Positions 3,606 through 57,333 are shown, counted from the first letter of the stretch. The stretch: 61,591 nt of DNA from Candidatus Omnitrophota bacterium (GCA_018896815.1 JAHILY010000005.1:1-61591), one strand, 5' to 3'. Made by a program: numbers and translations. The notes: a model not told the origin generated them from the sequence alone.

Positions 3606-5629
3606 AACAAGTGGAAGAAGTTCTAGTTGGGCTAAAAAAATTTCATCCTGATGTAGGATTTGATATTGTTACCATAGATACATATGGAGATATGGATAAA
3701 AAAACACCTATATCAAATATAGAAGGAACGGATTTTTTTACAAGAGAAATAGACCATGCGCTTTTAAGAGACGAGATTGATATTGCTGTTCACAGCGCTA
3801 AGGATTTACCTGACAACTTAAAAGAGGGGATCAAGATAGCGCTTATTACTGAATCAATCGATCCATACGACTGTTTAGTTTCAAAATCCGGGTTAAAACT
3901 TAGCGAACTTCCTCCAGGGGCAAAGATAGGGACGAGCAGTTCGCGCCGCAAGACACAATTGAAGAAATACAGGAGTGATTTTCAGATCGTAGATATACGA
4001 GGAAATATTGAAGAACGTTTAAGATTACTTGATGATCGCGAGCGACGAGTGACGAACGACGAGCGACGAATAGATGCCATTGTTATTGCAGCTTGTGCGC
4101 TGTTGAGATTAGGTTTAAAACAACGCATAACCGAAAGATTGCCTTTTGAGATTCTAAGGCCACATCCTTTACAGGGTTCGTTGGCAGTAGTAACAAGAAA
4201 GGACAAGGTTGATTTGATAAATCTCGTAAAGACAAAGAAGGTCTATATTGTTGGTGCAGGGCCAGGAAGGCCGGATTTAATAAGTGTGAGAGGATTGCGC
4301 ATTCTTAAAGAGGCCGATGTAGTCATATATGATTATCTTGTCGATAAGGCCCTTTTGGATGAGACTAAGCCAGAATCTGAGCTCATATCTTGCGGCAAGC
4401 TTGGCAAGAATAGATTTTCAGGAAAGTCTATCGAGGCACAGGCAAGGATAAGTGAGCTAATTGTTGAGAAGGCTAAAGAGGGAAGGCGTGTTGTAAGACT
4501 TAAGAATGGTGATGCAACTATTTTTAGCCGCCTAAGAGAAGAGCTCGAGGCATTAACTAGAAATAAGATAGAATTTGAAATAGTGCCTGGCGTTACAGCT
4601 GCAAGCGCAGCAGCAGGTTTTAGCGGCATACCACTTACAGATAGGCATGATTCATCCAGCGTTATTTTTTTAACAGGACACGAATCTGATGATAAGAGAA
4701 AAACTAGTATAGATTGGAATAGAGTGGCTGATTTTGAATCCTTGGTTATATACATGGGTGTTGATAGTATCTCAAAAATAGTCTCAGAGTTAATAAAATC
4801 AGGAAAATCCGGCAACACTCCAGCAGCCGTAGTATCAAAGGCAACAGACATAAACCAGAAAACAGTCAGGGGCAAGTTGAAAAATATTGCTGAAAAGGTA
4901 AGGACAGGAGATATTGAGCCGCCAGCGATATTTATTATTGGAAAAACCGCAGAGCTGGAAAAGGATTTTAACTGGTTCAGGAAGAATAAAAGGGTTTTAT
5001 TTACAGGTCTGTCTAAGGAGAGATTCTTTACAGACGGGACCTATTACCACCTGCCTTTGATTGACATAGGGCCACTCGATGACTATAAGGAATTTGACAG
5101 CCATTTGAAGAAAATCAGACAATTTGACTGGATAGTATTTGCAAGCCGCTATGGCGTGGAGTATTTCTTCGGAAGACTTAAAAAAATTGGGCATGACTCG
5201 AGAATACTTAACAACATAAAAATCGCAGGTGTAGGAAATTCTACAAAGGCAAGGCTTCTTGATTTTGGCATTTCAGCGGATCTGGTGCCGCAAAAGGAAT
5301 CTTCAGAAGGGTTGATCGAGGAGTTTGAGAAGATAGATATCAGAGGGAAGAACATATTTTTGCCCCGCTCTGATATATCTGATAAAGGCTTGGAAAAGGC
5401 CTTTCAGAAACTCGGAGCAATAATAGCCACTTCGTCCGCATATAGAAATAGAATTTCCAGAGATTTGCCTGATTTGGACCTGACCAGCTTTGATGAGGTC
5501 ATGTTTACGAGCCCTTCTACAGTAAGGAATTTTAGAAAAAGATATGGAAGATTGCCCGAGCATGTCAAGGCAAAGTGCATAGGGGATGTGACTTTGAGGG
5601 AGGCAAAGAGATGCCGGTTAATAGATTAA
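3557..5629 (+). CDS. Fusion protein: porphobilinogen deaminase (domains 1-2 only) / uroporphyrinogen-III C-methyltransferase / uroporphyrinogen-III synthase
   Basis: N-terminus VRVGTRKSPLALKQ...HSAKDLP...IGTSSSRR...RGNIEERL (HemC). Middle VYIVGAGPGRPDLISVRG...VRLKNGD (CobA/SUMT). C-terminus ...WIVFASRYGV...FTSPSTV (HemD). Confidence 0.8.
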   Translation: MPGTVRVGTRKSPLALKQVEEVLVGLKKFHPDVGFDIVTIDTYGDMDKKTPISNIEGTDFFTREIDHALLRDEIDIAVHSAKDLPDNLKEGIKIALITESIDPYDCLVSKSGLKLSELPPGAKIGTSSSRRKTQLKKYRSDFQIVDIRGNIEERLRLLDDRERRVTNDERRIDAIVIAACALLRLGLKQRITERLPFEILRPHPLQGSLAVVTRKDKVDLINLVKTKKVYIVGAGPGRPDLISVRGLRILKEADVVIYDYLVDKALLDETKPESELISCGKLGKNRFSGKSIEAQARISELIVEKAKEGRRVVRLKNGDATIFSRLREELEALTRNKIEFEIVPGVTAASAAAGFSGIPLTDRHDSSSVIFLTGHESDDKRKTSIDWNRVADFESLVIYMGVDSISKIVSELIKSGKSGNTPAAVVSKATDINQKTVRGKLKNIAEKVRTGDIEPPAIFIIGKTAELEKDFNWFRKNKRVLFTGLSKERFFTDGTYYHLPLIDIGPLDDYKEFDSHLKKIRQFDWIVFASRYGVEYFFGRLKKIGHDSRILNNIKIAGVGNSTKARLLDFGISADLVPQKESSEGLIEEFEKIDIRGKNIFLPRSDISDKGLEKAFQKLGAIIATSSAYRNRISRDLPDLDLTSFDEVMFTSPSTVRNFRKRYGRLPEHVKAKCIGDVTLREAKRCRLID
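4038..4070. repeat. In-frame short tandem/direct repeat (GAGCGACGA units) inside the HemC domain
   Basis: gcGAGCGACGAgtgacgaacgacGAGCGACGAa encodes RERRVTNDERR. This lies where E. coli HemC has only about 3 residues between LD and YDAI. Confidence 0.6.
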
Positions 5630-12453: not shown

Positions 12454-12459
12454 ACTTGT

Positions 12460-12568
12460 CCCCCCTGTTTTCTTTGTTTTCATCCCTAGAAATCGCGAAT
12501 GCGATTTCAGGGATTAAATCCCGGAAATTCTCCGAATTTCACGGGACAAAGAAAACAAAGAAGGGGGG
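12460..12568. repeat. Nested palindromic element, two-hairpin subtype (C6 ... G6 clamp)
   Basis: CCCCCCTGTTTTCTTTG... / ...CAAAGAAAACAAAGAAGGGGGG outer arms. Inner hairpins CCCTAGAAATCGC-GAAT-GCGATTTCAGGG and CCCGGAAATTC-TCC-GAATTTCACGGG. Same architecture as 44656-44766. Confidence 0.8.
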
Positions 12569-12605
12569 ATAATTCGCACCTTCATAGAAGTTAACCAGAG
12601 AAGAT

Positions 12606-12638
12606 GTAGTTACGAAAATCAAAGATTTTCATAACTAC
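12606..12638. repeat. GAAAATC-type hairpin module
   Basis: GTAGTTACGAAAATC-AAA-GATTTTCATAACTAC: 15-bp arms with one mismatch. Confidence 0.7.
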
Positions 12639-12665
12639 AGTGCTCATTAAAAAAAGGAGGAGGAC

Positions 12666-12905
12666 ATGCCAAAACTCATTGTACATCTAATATATCCACA
12701 GAAATTAATCAAAGAACCTGTAATCTACACCATGGCTAAAAAATATGATGTAATCCCGAATATCAGAAGGGCCAAGGTCACAGAGGAAATAGGCGAGATG
12801 ACACTGGAACTCAACGGCACAAAGGAAAACCTTGAGGCCGGCAGAAAGTATTTAGAAAAGACAGGAGTCAAAGTCGAACCAGTCGTAGGAGATATTGTTG
12901 AATAA
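12666..12905 (+). CDS. Stand-alone NIL-domain protein
   Basis: 79 aa, LIYPQKLIKEPVIY...NIRRAKV...GEMTLELNG resembles the MetN C-terminal NIL domain. Strong RBS AGGAGGAGG. Confidence 0.55.
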   Translation: MPKLIVHLIYPQKLIKEPVIYTMAKKYDVIPNIRRAKVTEEIGEMTLELNGTKENLEAGRKYLEKTGVKVEPVVGDIVE

Positions 12906-36346: not shown

Positions 36347-38335
36347 ATGTTGTTTAAGGAACTACAAGAGCGCGCAAAAAAAGAGTGGGAAGGGATAAAA
36401 CAAAGTGAACCCCTGGTGATCTCAGTGGGTGCTGCTACTTGCGGTAGGTCTGCGGGCGCGCTATCTGTGCTTCAAGCCTTCAAAGATGAATTAAATACTC
36501 GTCGTATTCGTGCCCGCATCGTTGAGGTAGGATGTATCGGCCTATGTTACAGAGAGCCCATTGTTACTATTACTAAATCCGGACATCCTGGCATATGTTA
36601 TGGCAATATAACGCCTCCAAAGGTTATAGAACTCATCGAAGGTCATATTATCAATGACAAGGTCTTAGAAGATTATGCGCTGGGTACTATCGGAGAGGGC
36701 AGCATTGACAAAGTCCCTAGCCTCTTTCAGATCCCAGTGCTTAAGCCGCAAGTGAGACGTATCATGAATAATTTCGGGTTCATTGACCCTACAAATATAA
36801 ATCATTATATTGCTAATGGCGGCTATAGTGGCCTGGCAAAGGCCCAAAAGATGAAACCAGGACAAATAATTAATGAACTAAAGAAATCCGGCTTGAGAGG
36901 CAGGGGTGGCGCTGGTTTTCCTACCTGGCAAAAATGGCAGTTTTGCTTAAATGCAAAAGGTAGACATAGATATATTATCTGCAATGCTGACGAGGGCGAC
37001 CCAGGCGCTTTTATGAACAGGTCTCTTCTTGAAAGCGACCCGCATTCTGTATTGGAGGGACTACTTATAGCTGGTTATGCTATTGGAGCAGAAAAAGGCT
37101 ATATCTACTGTCGCGCAGAATATCCCTTAGCATTGGATAGACTAAAAATAGCTCTTAAAGAGATGGAAAAAAACATGTTTTCAGGAAACAATTGTGATTC
37201 CGGGTTTAATTTTCATATAGAGATAAAGCAGGGCGCAGGCGCTTTTGTTTGCGGCGAGGAGACCGCTCTTATTGCCTCTATCGAAGGCAAACGTGGCATG
37301 CCTAACCCCCGGCCACCTTTTCCTGCAATATCCGGGCTATGGGGAGAGCCTACTATTATCAATAACGTGGAGACCCTGGCGTCTGTAGCTTCTATATTTA
37401 AGAATAATGCTGATTGGTTTGGCCAATATGGTACGCAAAAAAGCAAGGGTACTAAGACTTTTGCGTTAGCAGGCAAGATAAGGCGCACTGGTCTTATTGA
37501 AGTGCCGTTAGGTGTTACGCTAAGAGAGGTAATATACGAGATAGGCGGCGGGATTCAGAACGATAAAAAATTCAAGGCAGTTCAGACAGGCGGCCCCTCA
37601 GGCGGATGCTTACCCGCTTCTCTTTTAGATGAACCTATTGATTACGAGTCACTCGCTCAAGCCGGCTCAATTATGGGTTCCGGCGGCATGGTGGTAATGG
37701 ACGAAGATACCTGCATGGTGGATATTGCCCGCTATTTTCTTGATTTTACGCAAAAAGAATCCTGCGGAAAATGTGTTCCCTGCAGGCTCGGCACAAAACA
37801 GATGCTTGATATTCTTAATGATATAACTCAAGGAAAAAGTAGATCTGAAGATATTGATCTTCTTCTCGAATTAGCTGAAGGGATAAAGGCAGGTTCACTC
37901 TGTGGTCTCGGCCAGACAGCGCCAAATACAGTACTTACTACTATTCGTTATTTTCGGGATGAGTACGAGGCGCATATAAAACATAGGAAATGTCCGGCAG
38001 GTGTTTGTAAAGCACTGATCCGCTATTCTATTGACGAAGCTAAGTGTACTGGATGCGGTGTTTGTAAAAAAGAGTGTCCAGGGGACGCCATCTCGCGGTA
38101 TAGGAAAGTATATCCCCCCTTGTTTCCTTCCCCGCAGATTTGCTGGTGCAAATCTAATCGCGGGGACAGGTCGGAAACAAAACAGGGGGGACGGCGAAAA
38201 TCGCTTAAAAATTATCGCCGCAAGGCGATTTTCTTGGGAGAAAAGAAAAAACCTCATAAGATAGATCAGGCAACCTGTATTAAATGCGGGGTCTGTAAAG
38301 AGGTCTGCAGATTTGAGGCTGTGAAGATAGAATAA
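36347..38335 (+). CDS. NuoF/HydB-like NAD(H)- and FMN-binding subunit with N-terminal 2Fe-2S domain and C-terminal 2x[4Fe-4S] domain (interrupted by a repeat element)
   Basis: GLRGRGGAGFPT, ICNADEGDPGAFM, ESCGKCVPCRLG, SLCGLGQ, CTGCGVCKKECP, CIKCGVCKEVC. Confidence 0.85.
   Translation: MLFKELQERAKKEWEGIKQSEPLVISVGAATCGRSAGALSVLQAFKDELNTRRIRARIVEVGCIGLCYREPIVTITKSGHPGICYGNITPPKVIELIEGHIINDKVLEDYALGTIGEGSIDKVPSLFQIPVLKPQVRRIMNNFGFIDPTNINHYIANGGYSGLAKAQKMKPGQIINELKKSGLRGRGGAGFPTWQKWQFCLNAKGRHRYIICNADEGDPGAFMNRSLLESDPHSVLEGLLIAGYAIGAEKGYIYCRAEYPLALDRLKIALKEMEKNMFSGNNCDSGFNFHIEIKQGAGAFVCGEETALIASIEGKRGMPNPRPPFPAISGLWGEPTIINNVETLASVASIFKNNADWFGQYGTQKSKGTKTFALAGKIRRTGLIEVPLGVTLREVIYEIGGGIQNDKKFKAVQTGGPSGGCLPASLLDEPIDYESLAQAGSIMGSGGMVVMDEDTCMVDIARYFLDFTQKESCGKCVPCRLGTKQMLDILNDITQGKSRSEDIDLLLELAEGIKAGSLCGLGQTAPNTVLTTIRYFRDEYEAHIKHRKCPAGVCKALIRYSIDEAKCTGCGVCKKECPGDAISRYRKVYPPLFPSPQICWCKSNRGDRSETKQGGRRKSLKNYRRKAIFLGEKKKPHKIDQATCIKCGVCKEVCRFEAVKIE
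38096..38236. repeat. Palindromic element copy inserted in frame (47 codons) in the nuoF-like gene
   Basis: TATAGGAAAGTATAT-C6 ... inner hairpin ... G6-ACGGCGAAAATCGC...GCGATTTTCTTG. The core is the reverse complement of 44767-44842 with about 7 differences (manual alignment). Confidence 0.75.
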
Positions 38336-38339
38336 AATA

Positions 38340-38365
38340 GTAGGCCAGGTTTAAACCTGGCCTAC
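38340..38365 (+). terminator. Perfect 26-bp palindrome between the nuoF-like gene and fdhA
   Basis: GTAGGCCAGGTTT|AAACCTGGCCTAC. No T-tract; probably an intercistronic structure. Confidence 0.4.
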
Positions 38366-38366
38366 G

Positions 38367-41084
38367 GTGATGATTATGATAAAGATAACCATTGATAATA
38401 TACAAGTAAAAGCTAAAGCAGGGACGACAATATTAGAAACAGCGCTTGAAAATGATATTTACATCCCGCATCTTTGCTATTACCCTGATCTGAAACCAGT
38501 TGGCGCGTGCCGATTGTGTATGGTAGAGATCCCTGGAAGAGGGTTAACGATTTCATGCAAGACCTTGGTAGAAAAAGGAATGGTTGTAAGGACAGAAAGC
38601 CCCCAGACCAGTAAGGTGCGGAGAACTGCTGTAGAGCTGCTTATTGTAAATCACCATGCGGATTGTCTTTCCTCCACCAAAGATACTCAGTGTAAATTAA
38701 AGGAGATAGCTACTTATGTTGGCATTGAGGAAGAGCGGTTAAAGCGATTGAGGGCCACGACTAAAACTACTCCTATTGACAGATCCAATCCTTTTTTTGA
38801 CCGCGAACCTGATAGGTGCGTACTTTGTGGTATTTGCGTAAGAACCTGTGAAGAGATACAAGGCGCGAGTGCTATAGATTTTGCGTTTAGAAGCTATGAC
38901 ACTACTATTAGTACTTTTGGAAACAAACCTATCCTGGAATCCAGATGCGAGTCCTGTGGCGAGTGCGTAGTGAGATGTCCTGTAGGCGCATTAAGGCCTA
39001 AGGATTACCAAAAGCCTTCCCGTGAGGTAAAGAGCGTGTGTACCTATTGCGGCGTTGGCTGCGGGATCTACCTGGGCGTCAGGGATAACTCTATTGTTAG
39101 TGTACGGGGCAATACTGATAGCCCTGCAAATGAAGGCAGGCTTTGCGTCAAGGGGCGATTTGGCTATAATTTTGTTAATCACCCTGACCGGTTGACTACG
39201 CCCCTTATCAAGAAAAATGGCAAATTTGTTGAAGCTACATGGACAGAGGCGCTGGAACTTATTGCAAAAAAATTCTCTCTTTATAAAAAGGAGCAGTTTG
39301 CTGCTATTGCTTCAGCCAGGTGCACTAACGAAGAAAACTATCTTGTTCAAAAATTTACCAGGGCGGTAATGGGAACAAATAATGTTGACCACTGCGCGCG
39401 GCTTTGCCACGCGCCTACTGTTGCAGGCCTGGCTCAATCCTTAGGTAGCGGCGCGATGACCAATACCATCAGCGAGATCGGCCTTACCGCATGTATCTTA
39501 GCCATAGGCACCAATACCACATCCGCCCACCCTGTAATCGGGCTGCAGGTAAGAAAAGCAGCTAAGCACTCTGCAAAGCTTATCGTGGCCAATCCTAAAG
39601 AGATCGACCTTTGTCGCTTCGCTGATGTATTCATACGACACCGGCCCGGTACTGATATAGCCCTCTTGATGGGTATGATGCGAGTTATTCTCGATGAAGG
39701 GCTATATGACTTACCCTTTATTGAAAAACGTACCGAGGGTTTCGAGGCCTTTAAGAAGACGCTTTCTAATTTTGACATGGATTTTGTAGAGAAGACAACA
39801 GGCGTAGACCGAAAGACGATTATTAAAGCAGCCAGGATCTATGCTACCTCTAAACCCAGCACTATTCTATATGCTATGGGTATCTGCCAGCATTCTCATG
39901 GCACTGATAATGTACTGGCTATCAGTAATCTATCGCTCATCACGGGGAACATCGGCAAGCCCTCATCAGGGGTCAACCCGTTACGGGGGCAGAACAATGT
40001 TCAGGGCGCCTGTGATATGGGATCTTTGCCTAATGTCTATCCCGGTTACCAGAAAGTGGATGACCCTGAGGTAAAAAAGAAATTTGAATCAGCCTGGGGT
40101 GTTCCTTTAGATCCATCGCGCGGGTTGACTCATTTTGAGATATCTGATGCCGCGTATGACAAGAAAATAAAAGCCCTTTATCTTGTCGGTGAAAATCCGA
40201 TCTTAAGCGAAGCAAATGCCAGTCATGTCGAAGACGCTATAAAAAGATTGGAATTTTTTGTGGTCCAGGATATATTCCTTACAGAAACCGCTGAATTGGC
40301 TGATGTAGTCTTGCCTGCAGCAAGCTTTGCTGAGAAGGACGGGACTTTCACGAACAGCGAGCGACGCGTTCAGAGGATACATAAGGCAATAGAGCCTGTT
40401 GGAAATGCAAAGCCTGACTGGTGGATCACATGCCAGATCGGTAAAAAACTGGGAGGTAAAGGATTTGATTTTTCAGATCCTGGAGAGATCATGGATGAGA
40501 TCGCTTCTTTAGTCCCGAATTATAAAGGCATATCCTATGATCGGCTGGAAAAAGGGGGACTCCAGTGGCCCTGTCTTGATTATAAACATAAAGGGACACA
40601 GATCCTTCACACCGAACGCTTCGCTACAAAAAGCGGCAAGGCTAAATTTATATCACTTGAATATAGGCCATCACAAGAAATCCCTGATAGCGAGTATCCG
40701 CTCGTCCTCACTACTGAGAGCAGTCTTTACCACTATACCTCAGGCGCTATGACGCGAAGAGTGGATGGCCTTAATATATTAAGGAAGCAGGAACTGGTAG
40801 AGATCAACCCGGAAGATGCGAATAGGCTTGGGATCAGTGATGGCCAGACAGTGCGTATAACTTCCCGGCGGGGCGAGGTGCAGGCTAAAGCAAAGGTAAC
40901 AGATGTTCCGTTGCCAGGCGTGATCTCTATGAGCATTCATTTTGCCGAAACAAAGACCAATCTAGTTACCAATGCTGCTTTGGATCCTATATCAAAGACA
41001 CCTGAGACAAAGGTATGCGCGGTGAAAGTCTGCCCTGTTAAAAGCTTTAACCACAGAGAACACAGAGGAAAAGATATAGTTTAA
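38367..41084 (+). CDS. fdhA: NAD-linked formate dehydrogenase alpha subunit (FdsA/FdhA type, Cys active site)
   Basis: N-terminal 2Fe-2S (C36, C47, C50, C64), NuoG-like clusters, CTYCGVGC, HCARLCHAPT (Cys, no in-frame TGA), MGD domains. Confidence 0.85.
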   Translation: MMIMIKITIDNIQVKAKAGTTILETALENDIYIPHLCYYPDLKPVGACRLCMVEIPGRGLTISCKTLVEKGMVVRTESPQTSKVRRTAVELLIVNHHADCLSSTKDTQCKLKEIATYVGIEEERLKRLRATTKTTPIDRSNPFFDREPDRCVLCGICVRTCEEIQGASAIDFAFRSYDTTISTFGNKPILESRCESCGECVVRCPVGALRPKDYQKPSREVKSVCTYCGVGCGIYLGVRDNSIVSVRGNTDSPANEGRLCVKGRFGYNFVNHPDRLTTPLIKKNGKFVEATWTEALELIAKKFSLYKKEQFAAIASARCTNEENYLVQKFTRAVMGTNNVDHCARLCHAPTVAGLAQSLGSGAMTNTISEIGLTACILAIGTNTTSAHPVIGLQVRKAAKHSAKLIVANPKEIDLCRFADVFIRHRPGTDIALLMGMMRVILDEGLYDLPFIEKRTEGFEAFKKTLSNFDMDFVEKTTGVDRKTIIKAARIYATSKPSTILYAMGICQHSHGTDNVLAISNLSLITGNIGKPSSGVNPLRGQNNVQGACDMGSLPNVYPGYQKVDDPEVKKKFESAWGVPLDPSRGLTHFEISDAAYDKKIKALYLVGENPILSEANASHVEDAIKRLEFFVVQDIFLTETAELADVVLPAASFAEKDGTFTNSERRVQRIHKAIEPVGNAKPDWWITCQIGKKLGGKGFDFSDPGEIMDEIASLVPNYKGISYDRLEKGGLQWPCLDYKHKGTQILHTERFATKSGKAKFISLEYRPSQEIPDSEYPLVLTTESSLYHYTSGAMTRRVDGLNILRKQELVEINPEDANRLGISDGQTVRITSRRGEVQAKAKVTDVPLPGVISMSIHFAETKTNLVTNAALDPISKTPETKVCAVKVCPVKSFNHREHRGKDIV

Positions 41085-41190
41085 TATAGTAGGAAAGTAT
41101 ATCCCCCTAGATTTACTCCTTATAGTCGTAAATCTAAGCAGGGGGGACTGCGAAAATTGCAGAAAGTTATTGCCGAGGGCAATTTTCTTG
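41085..41190. repeat. Palindromic element copy filling the fdhA-mobB intergenic gap
   Basis: TATAGTAGGAAAGTATAT-C5-TAGATTTAC..GTAAATCTA-AGCA-G6-ACTGCGAAAATTGC...GGCAATTTTCTTG. Confidence 0.75.
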
Positions 41191-41666
41191 TGAAGACGAT
41201 AGTGATATCAGGTAGTCATAGCAATATTGGCAAGACCTCCGTGGCTGAGGTTATGCTCAGCAGTTTAAATGGCTGGTCAGGGCTCAAGGTAACAACAGTA
41301 AAAGAGAAGTCTGGATGCGAGCGTGGTAGTAATTGTACGGTGTGTTCTGAATTAAAAGATGATTTTGATATTATTACGGATAAAAAGATAATCAACGAGA
41401 AAAATACAGACACTGCCCGAATGAAAAGCTCAGGCGCGAAGAAAGTAGTTTGGCTCAAGGCGAATACGAGTGGTCTGAAGCAGGGTTTAAAAAAGGCGCT
41501 TTACTGTTTGCGGGGTTCGAAAGGCGTGGTAATCGAAGGGACAAGTGTTTTAAAATATATAAATCCGGATCTGGCAATATATCTAAAGGATGGCGCAACG
41601 CGACCGAAACCAAGCGCTAAACAGACAGAGAAAAAGGCAGATATAGTTTATGACATTAATAGATAA
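41190..41666 (+). CDS. mobB: MobB-like P-loop protein
   Basis: VISGSHSNIGKTS Walker A. GTG 41190 preferred because the upstream TTG start (41157) lies inside the repeat element. Confidence 0.55.
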   Translation: MKTIVISGSHSNIGKTSVAEVMLSSLNGWSGLKVTTVKEKSGCERGSNCTVCSELKDDFDIITDKKIINEKNTDTARMKSSGAKKVVWLKANTSGLKQGLKKALYCLRGSKGVVIEGTSVLKYINPDLAIYLKDGATRPKPSAKQTEKKADIVYDINR

Positions 41667-44524: not shown

Positions 44525-44640
44525 TATAAACCTGGCGGCCCAGGGTATTCATTCCAAGAAAAAATCAAAAACTTCCCTTGACCCGCCAAAGAGCTGGAGA
44601 GGTCTACACAAAATGTTCAAAGAACATTTTGCTTGATAGC

Positions 44641-44903
44641 ATAGGAAATTATATGCCCCCCTGTTTTGTTTCGCTTCACCCCTAGAAATTGCAAAGCAAT
44701 TTCAGGGACTTTAGTCCTGGGAATTCTTCGAATTCCTCAGGGCTCAACAAAACAAAGCAGGCCTGTCCCCCCTGCTTTGTTTTTGACCTGTCCCCGCGAT
44801 TAGATTTGCGCCAGCAAATCTGCGGGGAAAAAACAAGGGGGGAGGGGACTGCGAAAAATCTCTTTGAGTCACCGAGCTCGCTGAAAGGCGGGCGAGATTT
44901 TTC
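44641..44903. repeat. Composite of the palindromic repeat family: two-hairpin unit, C6..G6 unit and GAAAAATCTC hairpin
   Basis: ATAGGAAATTATATG-C6 (44656); inner hairpins as at 12460-12568; second C6 (44767) ... G6 (44837); then GAAAAATCTC (44853) .. GAGATTTTTC (44894). Confidence 0.8.
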
Positions 44904-44931
44904 TTGAGTTTGTTGTTTTTAGGAGTATAAT
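44904..44931 (+). promoter_or_regulatory. Promoter candidate for the Spy-like gene
   Basis: TTGAGT-16 nt-TATAAT. The 13-mer TAGGAGTATAATA is repeated at 57346-57358. Confidence 0.4.
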
Positions 44932-44953: not shown

Positions 44954-45403
44954 ATGTGGAAAAGGTTAATTGTTTTACTGCTCGTGGTTTCTTTTGGTTT
45001 GATGGCGAGCTATGTTTATGCAGGAGGGTGTGAAAAAGGAAAAAGCGACAAGCATAATATGGAGGACAAGGTATTTCACAAGGCCATGATGCTGATTAAA
45101 AATCAGGAAGAATTAGGTCTTACAGACGAACAAATAAAGAAGGTAAAGGATCTGAAGATTGCTACTAAGAAGGACGTGATAAAGAAAAAGGCTGATATTG
45201 AGATACTTGGTCTGGATATAAAGGCAGCCTTGTGGGATGATGTAGTAGATTTAAACGCACTAAATGCATTGATTGACACGAAGTATGAGCTTAAAAAAGA
45301 AAAGACAAAGTCTTTGGTAGCTGCATATGTGGAGCTCAAAGGCGTTTTGACAGAAGAACAAAAGACAAAACTCAAAGATCTTTGCAAAAAAGATAAAAAG
45401 TAA
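44954..45403 (+). CDS. Spy/CpxP-family periplasmic protein (LTxxQ repeats)
   Basis: Signal peptide. LGLTDEQIKKVKDL and VLTEEQKTKLKDL motifs. Confidence 0.6.
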   Translation: MWKRLIVLLLVVSFGLMASYVYAGGCEKGKSDKHNMEDKVFHKAMMLIKNQEELGLTDEQIKKVKDLKIATKKDVIKKKADIEILGLDIKAALWDDVVDLNALNALIDTKYELKKEKTKSLVAAYVELKGVLTEEQKTKLKDLCKKDKK

Positions 45404-54836: not shown

Positions 54837-54887
54837 TACCTTGTCATAAATTAATATTGACACCAGCTGATAGCCGTGGTTTAATTA

Positions 54888-55022
54888 GTTGAAAGCGGGG
54901 AGGTCGTGACTGGCCTGAGAGTTCCGTGAGAGCGGATTACCCGATGAACCTGAACTGGATAATGCCAGCGGAGGGAAAAGAGGTTGTATAAGCCCTATGC
55001 CTGCATAGGGCCTTTTATTTTT
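54888..55022 (+). promoter_or_regulatory. TPP (THI-box) riboswitch with intrinsic terminator expression platform
   Basis: GGGGAGGTC..TGGCCTGAGA..ACCCGATGAACCTGAACTGGATAATGCCAGCGGAGGGA. Then GCCCTATGC..GCATAGGGC plus T-tract (54992-55022), and AGGAGG-ATG of thiM. Confidence 0.85.
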
Positions 55023-55032
55023 AGGAGGAAAC

Positions 55033-55818
55033 ATGGATATATATTCTGTGTTAGAAAGGGTGAGGGCCCAGAAACCCCTCGTGCATCACCTGACAAACTG
55101 GGTGACGATCTACGATTGCGCCAATATAGTAAAGGTATTCGGAGCTGCGCCTGTTATGGCGCACGCAGCTGAGGAGGTCGAGGATATGGCTGCGCTTGCC
55201 TCAGCCCTTGTGCTTAATATAGGTACCCTGACCCCTGATTTTATTGAGTCAATGAAGCTGGCTGCGAAGTCAGCCAATAAAAAGGGCATCCCTGTCACGC
55301 TGGATGTGTGCGGCGCAGGCGCTACAAAATTAAGGGACGAAAAGTGCTTTGAACTCCTCGACCAGGTTAAAATAGACGTGATCAAAGGCAATGCCTCAGA
55401 AGTCGCAAGGATCGCTGGCGAAAAGGTCAGGACAAAAGGCGTGGATTCAAGCGAGGTGGAGAAGGATCTGGTAGAGCTGGCAAAAACCCTTGCTGCAAAA
55501 AGAAACGCGACAGTCGTAATAACAGGAAAAGAAGATATAGTGGCTGATAAGGCGAAACATTTCATTGTAAAAAACGGATGTGAGATGATGGCGCATGTGG
55601 TGGGGACTGGATGCATGGCCGCATCAGTCATAGGGGCATTTAGTGCGGTAGAAAAGGATCTGGCCAAGGCAGCTACAGCCGGACTTTGTTGCTATGAAAT
55701 CGCGGCAGAGATCGCTTCTAAGGACAGCGCCGGGCCAGGCACATTTAAAGAAAAACTTTTTGATAATATTTACAGTTTAGATAAAGGCAAAATAGAAAAA
55801 CTACAGAGGGTAGAGTGA
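55033..55818 (+). CDS. thiM: Hydroxyethylthiazole kinase
   Basis: PLVHHLTNWVTIYDCANIVKVFGAAPVMA, VLNIGTL, VIKGNASE, GTGCM. Confidence 0.85.
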   Translation: MDIYSVLERVRAQKPLVHHLTNWVTIYDCANIVKVFGAAPVMAHAAEEVEDMAALASALVLNIGTLTPDFIESMKLAAKSANKKGIPVTLDVCGAGATKLRDEKCFELLDQVKIDVIKGNASEVARIAGEKVRTKGVDSSEVEKDLVELAKTLAAKRNATVVITGKEDIVADKAKHFIVKNGCEMMAHVVGTGCMAASVIGAFSAVEKDLAKAATAGLCCYEIAAEIASKDSAGPGTFKEKLFDNIYSLDKGKIEKLQRVE

Positions 55819-56441: not shown

Positions 56442-57254
56442 ATGTTTCATGAAGTGAGCGAAGCAAAGATCACAAGGGCGATTCTAAGAGAATTTGCCGG
56501 ATGGTTCGAAGAGTATATTACATCAGACGTAATAATCGTAGGCGGTGGGCCGAGCGGACTTACAGCTGCCAGGGATCTGGCAAGGGATGGAATTAAAACC
56601 CTGATTATTGAGGCAAACAATTATTTAGGCGGCGGCTTCTGGATCGGCGGGTATTTGATGAACACATTGACCTTCCGCGCGCCGGCAAATGAGATCCTGG
56701 ATGAATTAAAGATCCCATACAAGGAGGCCGAGCCAGGACTTTTTACCGCAGACGGCCCGAATGCATGTTCAAAGCTTATATCAGCTGCCTGCGATGCAGG
56801 GGTAAAGATTTTAAACATGACCAAGTTCGACGACGTGGTTTTAAGAAACAGCAGGGTAGAAGGCACGGTTATAAACTGGACGCCTGTTTCAGCGCTTCCT
56901 CGGCAGATTACATGCGTGGATCCTGTTTCTCTGGAATCCAAGATCGTTATTGACGCCACTGGTCATGACGCGCATGTCTGCAGGAGCTTGGAAAAAAGAA
57001 ATATCCTGAAATTGAAAGAGTTTGGCCCAATGGATGCAAATACCTCTGAGGACCTGGTAGTGGAGAAGACAGGCGAGATCTATCCAGGACTTTTGGTCTG
57101 CGGCATGGCAGTCTCCACTGCCTACGGCATCCCGCGCATGGGCCCGACATTCGGAGGCATGCTGGTTTCAGGCAAGAAGGTGGCAGAACTCGCAAAAGAT
57201 ATGATACTCGGCGTCGGTAAGGTATCACCCCGACCAGCCGTACTCACCAACTAA
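56442..57254 (+). CDS. thi4: Thi4-family thiazole synthase
   Basis: DVIIVGGGPSGLTAA, GGGFWIGG, VIDATGHDA, GMAV...PRMGPTFGGMLVSG. Confidence 0.85.
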   Translation: MFHEVSEAKITRAILREFAGWFEEYITSDVIIVGGGPSGLTAARDLARDGIKTLIIEANNYLGGGFWIGGYLMNTLTFRAPANEILDELKIPYKEAEPGLFTADGPNACSKLISAACDAGVKILNMTKFDDVVLRNSRVEGTVINWTPVSALPRQITCVDPVSLESKIVIDATGHDAHVCRSLEKRNILKLKEFGPMDANTSEDLVVEKTGEIYPGLLVCGMAVSTAYGIPRMGPTFGGMLVSGKKVAELAKDMILGVGKVSPRPAVLTN

Positions 57255-57333
57255 ATGCTTTACACTTTAGTCCTGGACTAAAGTGTAAAGCATTCTCAGG
57301 GATCCCAAGCAAGGCTGAGGTTTTGCTTGGGAT
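57254..57333 (+). terminator. Two consecutive strong stem-loops after thi4
   Basis: AATGCTTTACACTTTAGT-CCTGG-ACTAAAGTGTAAAGCATT (18-bp stem). ATCCCAAGCAA-N10-TTGCTTGGGAT followed by a T-rich stretch. Confidence 0.6.

What the first reader, a model, noticed from the sequence alone, without database searches (positions are those of the whole stretch)
44641..44903. Modular nested palindromic repeat family with compensatory substitutions between copies
This intergenic block strings together three modules that recur across the window. Module (i) is a C6...G6-clamped unit with two inner hairpins (44656-44766), collinear with 12460-12568. Module (ii) is a second C6...G6 unit (44767-44842), which is the reverse complement of 38114-38190. 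Module (iii) is a GAAAAATCTC...GAGATTTTTC hairpin (44853-44903), matching GAAAATCGC/GCGATTTTC (38196/38225), GAAAATTGC/GCAATTTTC (41153/41179) and GAAAATC/GATTTTC (12614/12624). Differences between copies are frequently paired. TT..AA in 44783-84/44830-31 corresponds to CC..GG in the 38xxx copy. AAATCGC/GCGATTT (12490) corresponds to AAATTGC/GCAATTT (44687). This covariation implies selection on a folded DNA or RNA structure, not just shared descent. No transposase, RAYT or integrase gene is in the window.
Basis: seen in the sequence. Interest (0 to 1): 0.68.

Follow-up and report, generated by a model that had tools for sequence, protein, structure and literature searches.

The report
Miniature rolling-circle (IS91-type) transposon copies
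The hairpin-rich repeats are three copies of a small, gene-less mobile element that shares both ends with an IS91-family rolling-circle insertion sequence; one copy sits in frame inside an essential-looking redox gene, one splits a start codon, and one sits in a promoter.

Summary
The window is a 61.6-kb contig of a Candidatus Omnitrophica MAG. It holds three composite elements, all on the + strand: 38096-38236, 41084-41190 and 44636-44906. A solitary hairpin module lies at 12460-12568. Each composite element has a conserved 5' end (nAGYA-TAGGAAAKTATAT), one or two C-run/G-run clamped nested hairpins, and a conserved 3' module ending GATTTT(T)CTTG.

The family occurs in at least five other Omnitrophota MAGs, one MAG labelled Planctomycetia, and several metagenomes.

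Both ends match the ends of a 1.66-kb insertion sequence that encodes an IS91-family transposase (Zn_Tnp_IS91 + Y2_Tnp). Element and IS both abut CTTG, TTTA, TTTG or CTCG on the left, both end in CTTG, and neither has a target duplication or terminal inverted repeats.

So these are non-autonomous, MITE-like derivatives of a rolling-circle IS, not REP/RAYT elements and not an RNA gene.

- Copy A is a precise 141-nt in-frame insertion in a NuoF-like gene. It is absent from an 82%-identical orthologue.
- Copy B splits a start codon and supplies a new GTG.
- Copy C lies at a promoter's -35 box and appears to regenerate it.

Compensatory changes in the stems are real but few. I rate this a new variant of a known kind, of moderate interest.

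The parts
38092..38095 (+). CTCG, flanking tetranucleotide to the left of copy A (inferred target / cleavage tetranucleotide)
   Evidence: Filled site GCCAT-CTCG-[element]-GGAG against empty site GCTATCTCA|GGAG in orthologue L029. Flank tally.
38096..38236 (+). Copy A: a 141-nt element inserted in frame (47 codons, no stop) in the NuoF-like gene
   Evidence: (absent from 10 homologues, including P0002 at 82% identity).
38096..38113 (+). Copy A ori-type end, CGGTATAGGAAAGTATAT
   Evidence: Matches the IS terminus CAGTATAGGAAAGTATA.
38114..38190 (+).
38191..38236 (+). Copy A ter-type module, ACGGCGAAAATCGC...GGCGATTTTCTTG
   Evidence: Model R1, 70.9 bits. Alignment to IS ter ends.
36347..38335 (+). 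Host gene of copy A: NuoF-like subunit. The insert lies between the two 4Fe-4S motifs of the C-terminal ferredoxin domain.
   Evidence: Pfam Complex1_51K, NADH_4Fe-4S and Fer4. Alignment.
41080..41083 (+). TTTA, flanking tetranucleotide to the left of copy B
41084..41190 (+). Copy B: a 107-nt element between the formate-dehydrogenase-like gene and the MobB-like gene. Its first base completes the upstream TAA stop (41082-41084). Its last base is the G of the downstream GTG start (41190-41192).
   Evidence: In L029 the two genes overlap (ATGA) with no element.
44609..44635 (+). Hairpin CAAAATGTTC-AAA-GAACATTTTG followed by CTTG: a ter-like structure after which copy C is inserted
44636..44906 (+).
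44636..44654 (+). Copy C ori-type end, ATAGCATAGGAAATTATAT
44656..44761 (+). Its 3' G-run is interrupted after CAGG.
44762..44843 (+). Inverted second hairpin module, nested in the G-run. It is the reverse complement of copy A's hairpin at 88%. L021 has the same junction.
44844..44906 (+). Copy C ter-type module, GGGGACTGCGAAAAATCTC...GAGATTTTTCTTG
   Evidence: Model R1, 32.5 bits, E 4e-05. Fold.
44904..44931 (+). Promoter-like site TTGAGT-16-TATAAT. Its TTG is the last three bases of copy C. It lies upstream of the LTXXQ-family gene at 44954.
   Evidence: (10 of 12 matches).
12460..12568 (+). Solitary C6...G6 hairpin module (module i type). It is preceded by CTTG (12455-12458) but lacks both IS-type ends.
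   Evidence: z -9.15. No R1 hit.

Best explanation
The repeats are non-autonomous, MITE-like derivatives of an IS91-family rolling-circle insertion sequence of Omnitrophota.

Anatomy. An element has three parts:
- the IS's ori-type end (nAGYA-TAGGAAAGTATAT);
- one or more internal C/G-clamped hairpins;
- the IS's ter-type end (a hairpin, then an A/T-rich stretch, then CTTG).

Inferred mechanism, by analogy with IS91:
1. A Y2 HUH transposase supplied in trans nicks the + strand just 3' of a CTTG-like tetranucleotide at the left junction.
2. Replication displaces the + strand until the element's own terminal CTTG.
3. The single strand is then inserted 3' of another YTYR tetranucleotide (CTTG, TTTA, TTTG or CTCG), without target duplication.

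Inferred consequences. The element ends with the tetranucleotide it targets. Insertion into the cTTGaca -35 box of a promoter therefore rebuilds the box, and insertion at a gene junction can rebuild a start codon. These are reconstructions from the present-day sequence of copies B and C; neither has a usable empty site for comparison. The stems are kept paired because the transposase probably reads hairpins in single-stranded DNA. That would explain the compensatory changes.

Shown: the shared ends, the flanking tetranucleotides, one empty site matched to a filled site, and the multi-genome distribution.
Inferred: the nicking strand, mobilisation in trans, and the reason for orientation.
For: 1. 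IS link.
- L063 carries an ORF with Zn_Tnp_IS91 (5e-21) and Y2_Tnp (9e-17) next to an element.
- That ORF has 305 homologues of about 410-430 aa, mostly on 1.5-2 kb contigs.
- Five independent contexts (L070-L074) define a 1658-1659 bp IS. On the element's strand it starts CAGTATAGGAAAGTATA. It ends ...CATTGAAGGTCATGAGGAGCGAAGCGACGAATTAACTTG.
- The start is identical to the element's 5' end. The end aligns with the element's 3' module.
- Two more distant IS lineages keep TAGGAAAGTATA at the same end. One of them ends ...GGAATTTTCTTG (L075; L077).

2. Flanks. Across 31 insertion contexts of elements and IS, the left flank is CTTG 13 times, TTTA 9, TTTG 3 and CTCG 2. All full copies end in CTTG. 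IS91-family hallmarks reported in PMC13181058 are: no target duplication, a CTTG/GTTC target next to oriIS, a CTCG/GTTC cleavage site at terIS, subterminal palindromes, and a single-strand circle intermediate.

3. Mobility.
- Copy A is a precise 141-nt insertion, absent from the 82%-identical orthologue and nine other homologues.
- The syntenic contig L029 has no element.
- Copies differing by 1 nt sit at three different loci of one metagenome (L035, L059, L066).
- A second in-frame insertion sits in a YbeY gene (P0121 = L033).

4. Elements and IS insert right after each other's terminal CTTG (L059, L063, L070/L071).

5. In 5 of 17 full copies the terminal TTG starts a 10-11 of 12 sigma-70 match.

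6. Stems are maintained.

7. No Rfam family matches.
Against: - No IS91-type transposase is in this 61.6-kb contig, and the rest of the MAG could not be examined. A source of transposase in this genome is therefore assumed.
- IS and element were seen together on one short contig only (L063).
- The internal C/G-clamped hairpins are not found in the L070-L074 IS. One occurs alone (12460-12568) and some are inverted, so part of the anatomy is not explained by simple internal deletion of the IS.
- The only clean comparison of an empty and a filled site is copy A. There the flanks CTCG and CTTG could also be read as a degenerate 4-bp duplication.
- The strand convention for the IS91 tetranucleotide differs between the two papers read (CTTG/GTTC versus CAAG/GAAC). 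I could not fix identity of polarity with IS91.
- 15 of 15 downstream genes are co-oriented with the element. Selection at the RNA level could equally cause that.
Confidence: 0.8

Rival explanations
1. A structured cis-acting RNA (5'-UTR or intercistronic element) that the cell uses to stabilise, process or tune translation of the downstream gene. On this view the repeats spread because they are useful.
For: - Every copy with a called downstream gene is co-oriented with it (15 of 15). The 3' end lies 0-40 nt from many start codons.
- L059 has a canonical promoter about 25 nt upstream of a copy, so that copy is transcribed as a leader.
- Very stable folds, and a possible closing helix between AGGAAAG and UUUUCUU.
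- Single-sided changes in the 3' helix are mostly G-T rather than A-C: 7 against 1.
- Loop sequences GAGGG/GAAGG could serve as ribosome-binding sites.
Against: - Downstream genes are unrelated: pgk, pyrF, rpsM, pilin-like, GDP-mannose dehydratase-like, MobB-like, LTXXQ.
- Copies are present or absent between close relatives.
- Two copies are translated inside proteins.
- Both ends are those of a transposase-bearing IS.
- No Rfam match.
- Exaptation of individual copies is not excluded.
Confidence: 0.08
2. REP/BIME-type or IS200/IS605-type palindromic elements moved by a Y1 HUH enzyme (RAYT or TnpA), as the first reader leaned towards.
For: - Hairpin-rich, no target duplication, no terminal inverted repeats, strand-biased.
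- Some left flanks read TTAC or TTGAT. From my own knowledge, these are the IS608 and ISDra2 targets.
- A separate GTAG-headed palindrome exists at 38340-38365.
Against: - The element's termini are those of an IS whose only ORF carries Zn_Tnp_IS91 and Y2_Tnp.
- No Y1 gene was seen in any locus examined.
- The conserved head is TAGGAAAGTATAT, 5-6 nt inside the boundary, not GTAG abutting a palindrome.
- The right end is CTTG, as in the IS91 family.
Confidence: 0.04
3. Two independent repeat families. On this view the C/G-clamped hairpins are a separate mobile or self-propagating palindrome, and they merely nest inside the IS91-type miniature elements.
For: - A hairpin occurs alone at 12460-12568 without IS-type ends.
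- Hairpins occur inverted at the same CAGG|GGGG junction in copy C and in L021.
- Hairpins occur in tandem in L013 and L026.
- A core without any C/G hairpin exists in L018 at 5515-5601.
- The L070-L074 IS has no such hairpin.
Against: - Almost every element carries the hairpin at the same position.
- The distant IS L075 has a small hairpin at that very position, next to TAGGAAAGTATAT. A subterminal ori palindrome is expected for the IS91 family.
- This rival complements the main explanation rather than replacing it.
Confidence: 0.3

Closest known systems
IS91 family insertion sequences and their experimental or natural miniatures (mini-IS91 terIS-marker-oriIS; IS801 one-ended fragments of 229, 360 and 679 nt)
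   Same: - No target duplication and no terminal inverted repeats.
- A CTTG-type tetranucleotide abuts the ori end, and a related tetranucleotide lies at the ter cleavage site.
- Subterminal palindromes at the ends.
- The ends suffice for mobilisation with transposase in trans (PMC13181058, PMC3189936).
- The partner IS here encodes Zn_Tnp_IS91 + Y2_Tnp.
   Different: - This is a natural, multi-copy family of 91-271 nt with both ends retained, spread over several Omnitrophota genomes and metagenomes.
- It carries large internal nested hairpins absent from the closest IS.
- IS801 miniatures are right-end fragments from one-ended events.
- The 2024 review of prokaryotic MITEs that I read (PMC10969869) does not mention IS91 or rolling-circle parents.
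Non-autonomous Helitrons of eukaryotes
   Same: Rolling-circle HUH-Y2 logic, a 3' subterminal hairpin acting as terminator (PMC4778049 abstract), no target duplication, and short gene-less derivatives that outnumber autonomous copies.
   Different: Helitron transposases carry a helicase domain and insert between A and T with 5'-TC/CTRR-3' ends (my own knowledge). The partner here is a bacterial IS91-type protein without a helicase.
Rickettsia palindromic elements (RPE)
   Same: Palindromic elements of about 100-150 bp found in frame inside unrelated housekeeping genes and translated as extra peptide segments (PMC10969869). Here the cases are NuoF-like (47 aa) and YbeY (46 aa).
   Different: Unrelated sequence and host phylum. 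From my own knowledge, no parent transposase is established for RPEs. In-gene copies are rare here: 2 found, and only 1 hit besides self among 1.84 billion representative proteins.
REP/BIME elements and REPINs with RAYT
   Same: Mosaic, modular arrangement of extragenic palindromes; HUH-type single-strand logic; strand bias.
   Different: The partner enzyme family is Y2 IS91-type rather than Y1 RAYT. The conserved head and CTTG ends differ, and copies also occur inside genes.
Classical bacterial MITEs (Correia, ERIC, MITEPsy1 and others)
   Same: Small, non-coding, multi-copy. They can carry promoter parts and alter neighbouring genes.
   Different: Classical MITEs have terminal inverted repeats and target duplications. 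This family has neither.

Membership tests
IS91-family (rolling-circle) element, non-autonomous derivative | Termini shared with an autonomous IS that encodes a Y2 HUH transposase (Zn_Tnp_IS91 + Y2_Tnp) | tested here: met
   - Pfam hits.
- IS boundaries come from five contexts.
- The 17-nt 5' end is identical, and the 3' module aligns.
- Two further IS lineages keep the motifs.
IS91-family (rolling-circle) element, non-autonomous derivative | Specific tetranucleotide (CTTG/GTTC type, T at position 2) abutting the ori end | tested here: met
   CTTG 13, TTTA 9, TTTG 3, CTCG 2 of 31 contexts. Compare PMC13181058, Table 2.
IS91-family (rolling-circle) element, non-autonomous derivative | No target-site duplication | tested here: inconclusive
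   Copy A: empty GCTATCTCA|GGAG against filled ...CTCG[141 nt ending CTTG]GGAG. Left and right tetranucleotides differ in most copies, for example TTTA...CTTG, which argues against a duplication. Only one orthologous empty site was available.
IS91-family (rolling-circle) element, non-autonomous derivative | No terminal inverted repeats; a ter end with a subterminal palindrome followed by a target-like tetranucleotide | tested here: met
   The ends are not complementary. Hairpin plus TTTTCTTG in elements; hairpin plus GAATTAACTTG or GAGGAATTTTCTTG in IS.
IS91-family (rolling-circle) element, non-autonomous derivative | Mobilisation by the transposase in trans through a single-strand circle | not testable with these tools
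   Needs transposition or cleavage assays.
IS91-family (rolling-circle) element, non-autonomous derivative | Transposase gene present in the same genome | not testable with these tools
   None in this contig. Co-residence was seen on L063 only.
Classical MITE | Terminal inverted repeats and a target-site duplication | tested here: not met
REP / REPIN (RAYT-associated) | GTAG tetranucleotide directly preceding a short palindrome, and association with a Y1 RAYT gene | tested here: not met
   The head is TAGGAAAGTATAT, set 5-6 nt in from the boundary. The only transposase found with these ends is of Y2 type. No genome-wide RAYT search was possible.
Any Rfam RNA family | Covariance-model match at the gathering score | tested here: not met
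   The only hit in the window is the TPP riboswitch at 54886-54993. The best permissive hit on the block is 26 bits against a gathering score of 90.
Rickettsia palindromic elements | Sequence membership in RPE-1 to RPE-10 in Rickettsia genomes | not tested
   Behavioural resemblance only (in-frame insertions). The host is Omnitrophota.

The most novel reading that the evidence does not exclude
A natural, phylum-wide family of miniature IS91-type rolling-circle elements that is 'scarless by design'. The element ends in the same CTTG it targets, and its ter end mimics a T-tract plus -35 box or a terminator tail. It can therefore land in promoters, at gene junctions and even inside genes while rebuilding the -35 box or the start codon. 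Some copies may since have been taken over by the host as promoter, ribosome-binding-site or leader modules.
Probability: 0.25. Interest if true: 0.65.

Novelty: new variant of a known kind. Interest (0 to 1): 0.5.

Why it matters
- Rolling-circle IS91/ISCR elements matter for gene capture and the spread of antibiotic resistance, yet their end requirements are poorly defined. In the literature I could search, high-copy miniature derivatives are not described for bacteria.
- This family offers dozens of natural minimal substrates of 91-271 nt. They show which parts of ori and ter are kept, and they come with natural compensatory mutants of the stems.
- It is a bacterial counterpart of non-autonomous Helitrons.
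- It explains odd protein insertions in Omnitrophota annotations (NuoF-like, YbeY).
- It explains contig breaks in Omnitrophota MAGs, since several copies lie at contig ends.
- It gives a concrete case of a transposon whose end may rebuild the promoter element it lands in.

Tried and rejected
- Rfam at gathering and permissive thresholds gave nothing relevant.
- A word-indexed protein search with the 47-aa insert peptide returned nothing, even though P0001 contains the peptide. I take this as a tool limitation.
- The exhaustive search with the same peptide found only one true second case, YbeY, plus one repetitive protein I regard as spurious.
- I considered a sigma-70 promoter in the 5' motif (TTGATA...TATAT). 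The spacer is 11 nt, so I rejected it.
- I considered an intrinsic terminator role for module iii, which the scan flags. I rejected it because copies lie in 5' leaders, within an operon and inside a reading frame.
- I considered translational bypassing or an intron for copy A. I rejected both: the insert is in frame without stops, too small for a group I or II intron, and has no matching take-off and landing codons.
- My first idea that only one of six frames of the element is open was wrong. Copy A is open in three frames.
- Looking up P0001's contig to reach the rest of the MAG failed.
- Literature searches for Omnitrophota repeats or MITEs found nothing relevant.
- The local hairpin ATCGC/GCGAT in module iii is not better supported than shuffles.
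- The upstream-structure test (p = 0.008) is confounded by intergenic location. I use it only as a hint.

Full report
**What is in the window.**

- Module (i), 44656-44741, matches 12460-12545 at 71% without gaps (D1).
- Module (ii), 44765-44842, is the reverse complement of 38115-38192 at 88% over 78 nt (I1).
- Module (iii) is a hairpin whose arms are GAAAAATCTC and GAGATTTTTC.

Reading the other loci showed more than loose modules. Three places share a 5' end TAGGAAAKTATATSCCCCC, at 38101, 41090 and 44642, where none is expected by chance. The same three share a 3' part GGGGGGACKGCGAAAAT...GATTTT(T)CTTG. They are whole elements, all on the + strand:
- copy A, 38096-38236;
- copy B, 41084-41190;
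- copy C, 44636-44906 (coordinates checked).

All fold far better than shuffled sequence, with z from -3.2 to -9.2. A covariance model of the 3' module finds exactly these three in the window. The hairpin at 12460-12568 stands alone, without either conserved end.

In copy C the first hairpin is not closed by a G6 run. Its G-run is split after CAGG by an inverted second hairpin (44762-44843). Locus L021 has the same junction.

**Copy A is inside a gene.**

ORF 36347-38335 is a NuoF-like protein (Complex1_51K, NADH_4Fe-4S, Fer4). The element reads through it in frame as 47 residues...CPGDAIS[RYRKVYPP...RRKAIFL]GEKKKPH....

The protein database holds this exact protein, from a MAG named Candidatus Omnitrophica bacterium, on a contig of 61591 nt. 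So the window is that whole contig.

Ten homologues, including P0002 at 82% identity and 616 aa, lack exactly these 47 residues. The syntenic contig of P0002 (L029) gives the empty site GCTATCTCA|GGAGAAAAG. The window has GCCATCTCG[141 nt]GGAGAAAAG. L029 has no copy of the element anywhere in 21.9 kb.

**Copy B is at a gene junction.**

In L029 the formate-dehydrogenase-like gene and the MobB-like gene overlap (ATGA). In the window, copy B sits between them.
- Its first base completes the upstream stop, TAA at 41082-41084.
- Its last base is the G of a GTG start at 41190-41192.
- The flanks read TTTA|...CTTG|TGAAGACG. My reconstruction is that the pre-insertion sequence read ...TTTATGAAGACG, so an ATG start was split and replaced by GTG. 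L029 differs too much at this junction to give a clean empty site, so this remains an inference.

**The family outside the window.**

An exact scan for the 18-mer in one genome per species gave 28 loci. True copies occur in five Omnitrophota MAGs (L001, L003, L018, L025, L026) and in five contigs of a MAG labelled Planctomycetia. Several of these lie at contig ends.

The same scan of metagenomes gave 40 loci with about 22 true copies. Nine of them come from one sample, Ga0265296.

After removing duplicates there are 25 anchored copies, 17 of them complete. The model found more copies with a diverged 5' motif (L059 at 1438-1570). It also found a core with no C/G hairpin at all (L018 at 5515-5601).

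Three copies from Ga0265296 (L035, L059, L066) differ by single bases but sit in front of different genes. That points to recent spread.

Neither Rfam nor the literature searches pointed to a described RNA or repeat family.

**The link to an insertion sequence.**

In L063 the element lies 118 nt from an ORF with Zn_Tnp_IS91 and Y2_Tnp domains. That protein has 305 homologues of about 410-430 aa. Nearly all are on contigs of 1.5-2 kb, which is how multi-copy IS assemble.

Five contigs (L070-L074) place the same 1658-1659 bp unit in five different flanks, so its ends are well defined. Written on the element's + strand, which is antisense to the transposase gene, the IS reads:

[CTTG or TTTA]|CAGTATAGGAAAGTATAAACGC ... 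GGTTTTCGCCATTGAAGGTCATGAGGAGCGAAGCGACGAATTAACTTG|

- The first 17 nt are the element's 5' end, with the same flanking tetranucleotides.
- The last 50 nt or so align with the element's 3' module: ACG.CG, TCGC, ATTGAAG.T.AT, GAAGCGA, CTTG.
- A 59%-identical IS lineage (L075) keeps TAGGAAAGTATAT followed by a small hairpin.
- Another lineage (L077) keeps AGTATAGGAAAGTATA at one end. At the other it has AAGCCC-GAAA-GGGCTT-GAGGAATTTTCTTG, whose last nine bases equal the element's.

Elements and IS also sit directly after one another's terminal CTTG:
- an element after the IS in L063;
- the IS after a module-iii-like hairpin in L070/L071;
- an element after a partial element in L059;
- copy C after a small hairpin plus CTTG.

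**Comparison with IS91.**

PMC13181058 reports the following for the IS91 family:
- no target duplication;
- a specific tetranucleotide next to oriIS (5'-CTTG or 5'-GTTC, with T always at position 2), which is essential;
- a related tetranucleotide at the terIS cleavage site (CTCG in IS91);
- subterminal imperfect palindromes;
- a single-stranded circular intermediate of one strand.

PMC3189936 shows that short right-end fragments of IS801 ending in a consensus tetranucleotide transpose in Pseudomonas syringae. It writes the targets as GAAC, GGAC, CAAG and CGAC. The strand convention therefore differs between the two papers, and I cannot say that the polarity here is identical to IS91.

In my data the left flank over 31 contexts is CTTG 13 times, TTTA 9, TTTG 3 and CTCG 2. 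The right end is always CTTG. The ends are not inverted repeats.

The junction CTTG|ATA in many copies is also the nick site of pC194-type plasmids and phiX174. This is from my own knowledge and was not tested here.

By position, the end distal to the transposase gene's 3' end corresponds to oriIS, and the end near its start corresponds to terIS.

**Mechanism.**

Shown:
- shared ends;
- flank specificity;
- one precise pair of empty and filled sites;
- near-identical copies at different loci;
- absence of a transposase in the window (tblastn).

Inferred:
- A Y2 transposase made elsewhere in the genome nicks the + strand 3' of the flanking tetranucleotide.
- The strand is displaced up to the element's own CTTG.
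- It is then inserted 3' of another YTYR.

**Orientation.**

All 15 copies with a called downstream gene are co-oriented with it, and 14 of 16 with the upstream gene. Three non-exclusive causes fit.
- The target sequences are themselves strand-specific features of the sense strand. In 5 of 17 complete copies the terminal TTG begins a 10-11 of 12 sigma-70 match:
  - L003, TTGACA-16-TAATAT;
  - L018, TTGACA-17-TATATT;
  - L021, TTGACA-17-TATACT;
  - L030, TTGACA-17-TAATAT;
  - copy C, TTGAGT-16-TATAAT at 44904-44931.
  With CTTG also on the left flank, the simplest reading is insertion into the cTTGaca box, which the element's own CTTG then rebuilds.
- Many copies follow a GC-rich hairpin and a T-rich tail. 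That arrangement resembles the ter end. The 50 nt upstream of insertion points are more structured than control YTYR sites: median -8.9 against -6.3 kcal/mol, p = 0.008. This is confounded by the sites being intergenic.
- The + strand is G-rich throughout (GC skew 0.12-0.23) and carries nearly all genes. A preference for the lagging-strand template, known for other HUH transposons (my own knowledge), would give the same bias.

**Covariation.**

- In eleven module-ii hairpins, one inner pair is T-A in six and C-G in five. Another pair is C-G in ten and T-A in one.
- The outer arm occurs in five forms, all compensated: TGTTTTC/GAAAACA, TGATTTC/GAAATCA, TGTTTCC/GGAAACA, TGTTTTT/AAAAACA and AGTTTTG/CAAAACT. 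There is one uncompensated case.
- In the 3' module the long helix GAAAATCGC/GCGATTTTC is paired in 94.2% of cells over 20 distinct sequences. Three pairs change on both sides, a value that 6-12 of 500 shuffles reach. The slid controls reach at most 59% pairing.
- The alternative local hairpin is no better than shuffles.
- Single-sided changes are mostly G-T, 7 against 1 C-A. This weakly favours folding of the + strand.

The numbers are small and many copies are close relatives. I read them as evidence that the stems are kept. That fits hairpin recognition in single-stranded DNA. Selection on an RNA is not required, and templated repair between palindrome arms could contribute.

**What remains unexplained.**
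- The C/G-clamped hairpins are absent from the closest IS (no significant fold at its ori end).
- They can be missing (L018), doubled in tandem (L013), inverted at a fixed junction (copy C, L021) or solitary (12460-12568).
- They may be an expanded ori subterminal palindrome, since the distant IS L075 has a small hairpin at that position. Or they may be a second palindromic unit nesting in the first.

**In-gene copies.**

An exhaustive search of 1.84 billion representative proteins with the 47-aa peptide found one more case: a 189-aa YbeY, which is L033 at 128-697. There the element adds 46 residues in the same frame. In-gene copies are thus real but uncommon. The resemblance to Rickettsia palindromic elements (PMC10969869) is one of behaviour, not of kinship.

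**Verdict.**

The suggested enzyme families are not; the partner is an IS91-family transposase.

I found no description of natural high-copy miniature IS91 derivatives. The principle, however, is established by mini-IS91 constructs and by the IS801 fragments. So I rate it a new variant of a known kind, interest 0.5.

Noticed in passing
window 54886-54993 (+): TPP riboswitch (RF00059), 55.2 bits, just above the gathering score of 54.3. It lies upstream of ORF 55033-55818.
   Followed up: no
window 38340-38365; L030 63-88: A second palindromic repeat, GTAGGCCAGGTTTAAACCTGGCCTAC: a GTAG head and a 10-bp stem. It fills the 31-nt gap between the NuoF-like and formate-dehydrogenase-like genes. The identical sequence occurs in an unrelated metagenome contig. 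In the orthologous contig L029 the two genes overlap and the palindrome is absent. It could be a REP-like family of its own.
   Followed up: partly
window 57254-57294: A perfect 20-bp inverted repeat, AATGCTTTACACTTTAGTCC / GGACTAAAGTGTAAAGCATT, with 1 nt between the arms. It begins at the last base of ORF 56442-57254.
   Followed up: no
window 12605-12639: A 15-bp-stem palindrome, TGTAGTTACGAAAATCAAAGATTTTCATAACTACA, 36 nt after the solitary hairpin module and 27 nt before the small ORF at 12666.
   Followed up: partly
L038 and L044 (Ga0265296), about 20-80 nt upstream of the element; also L035, L066, L045: Large GC-rich palindromes lie just upstream of many copies. L038 and L044 share one (GCAGAGCAAGCTCTGCAGCTACA...). 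These may be terminators or further repeat families ending in TAAYTTG.
   Followed up: no
L070 2453-3025 and L071 1938-2330 (- strand): A second, only 33%-identical Y2_Tnp fragment lies next to the IS. So different IS91-type elements cluster or nest.
   Followed up: no
L006, L012, L013, L015, L021 (CAZPSS01 contigs): A MAG labelled 'uncultured Planctomycetia bacterium' carries at least five copies, four of them at contig ends. Either the label is doubtful or the family has crossed phyla.
   Followed up: no
P0122 (967 aa): A protein made of about 11 tandem repeats matched the element peptide weakly (26% identity, E 2e-05). It is probably a compositional match.
   Followed up: no
L003 (rc) about 4260-4300; L061, L065: After the element's TTGACA-16-TAATAT, the ATG of an AAA_14/DUF4143 ATPase gene follows the -10 box by only 6 nt. 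That suggests a leaderless transcript.
   Followed up: no
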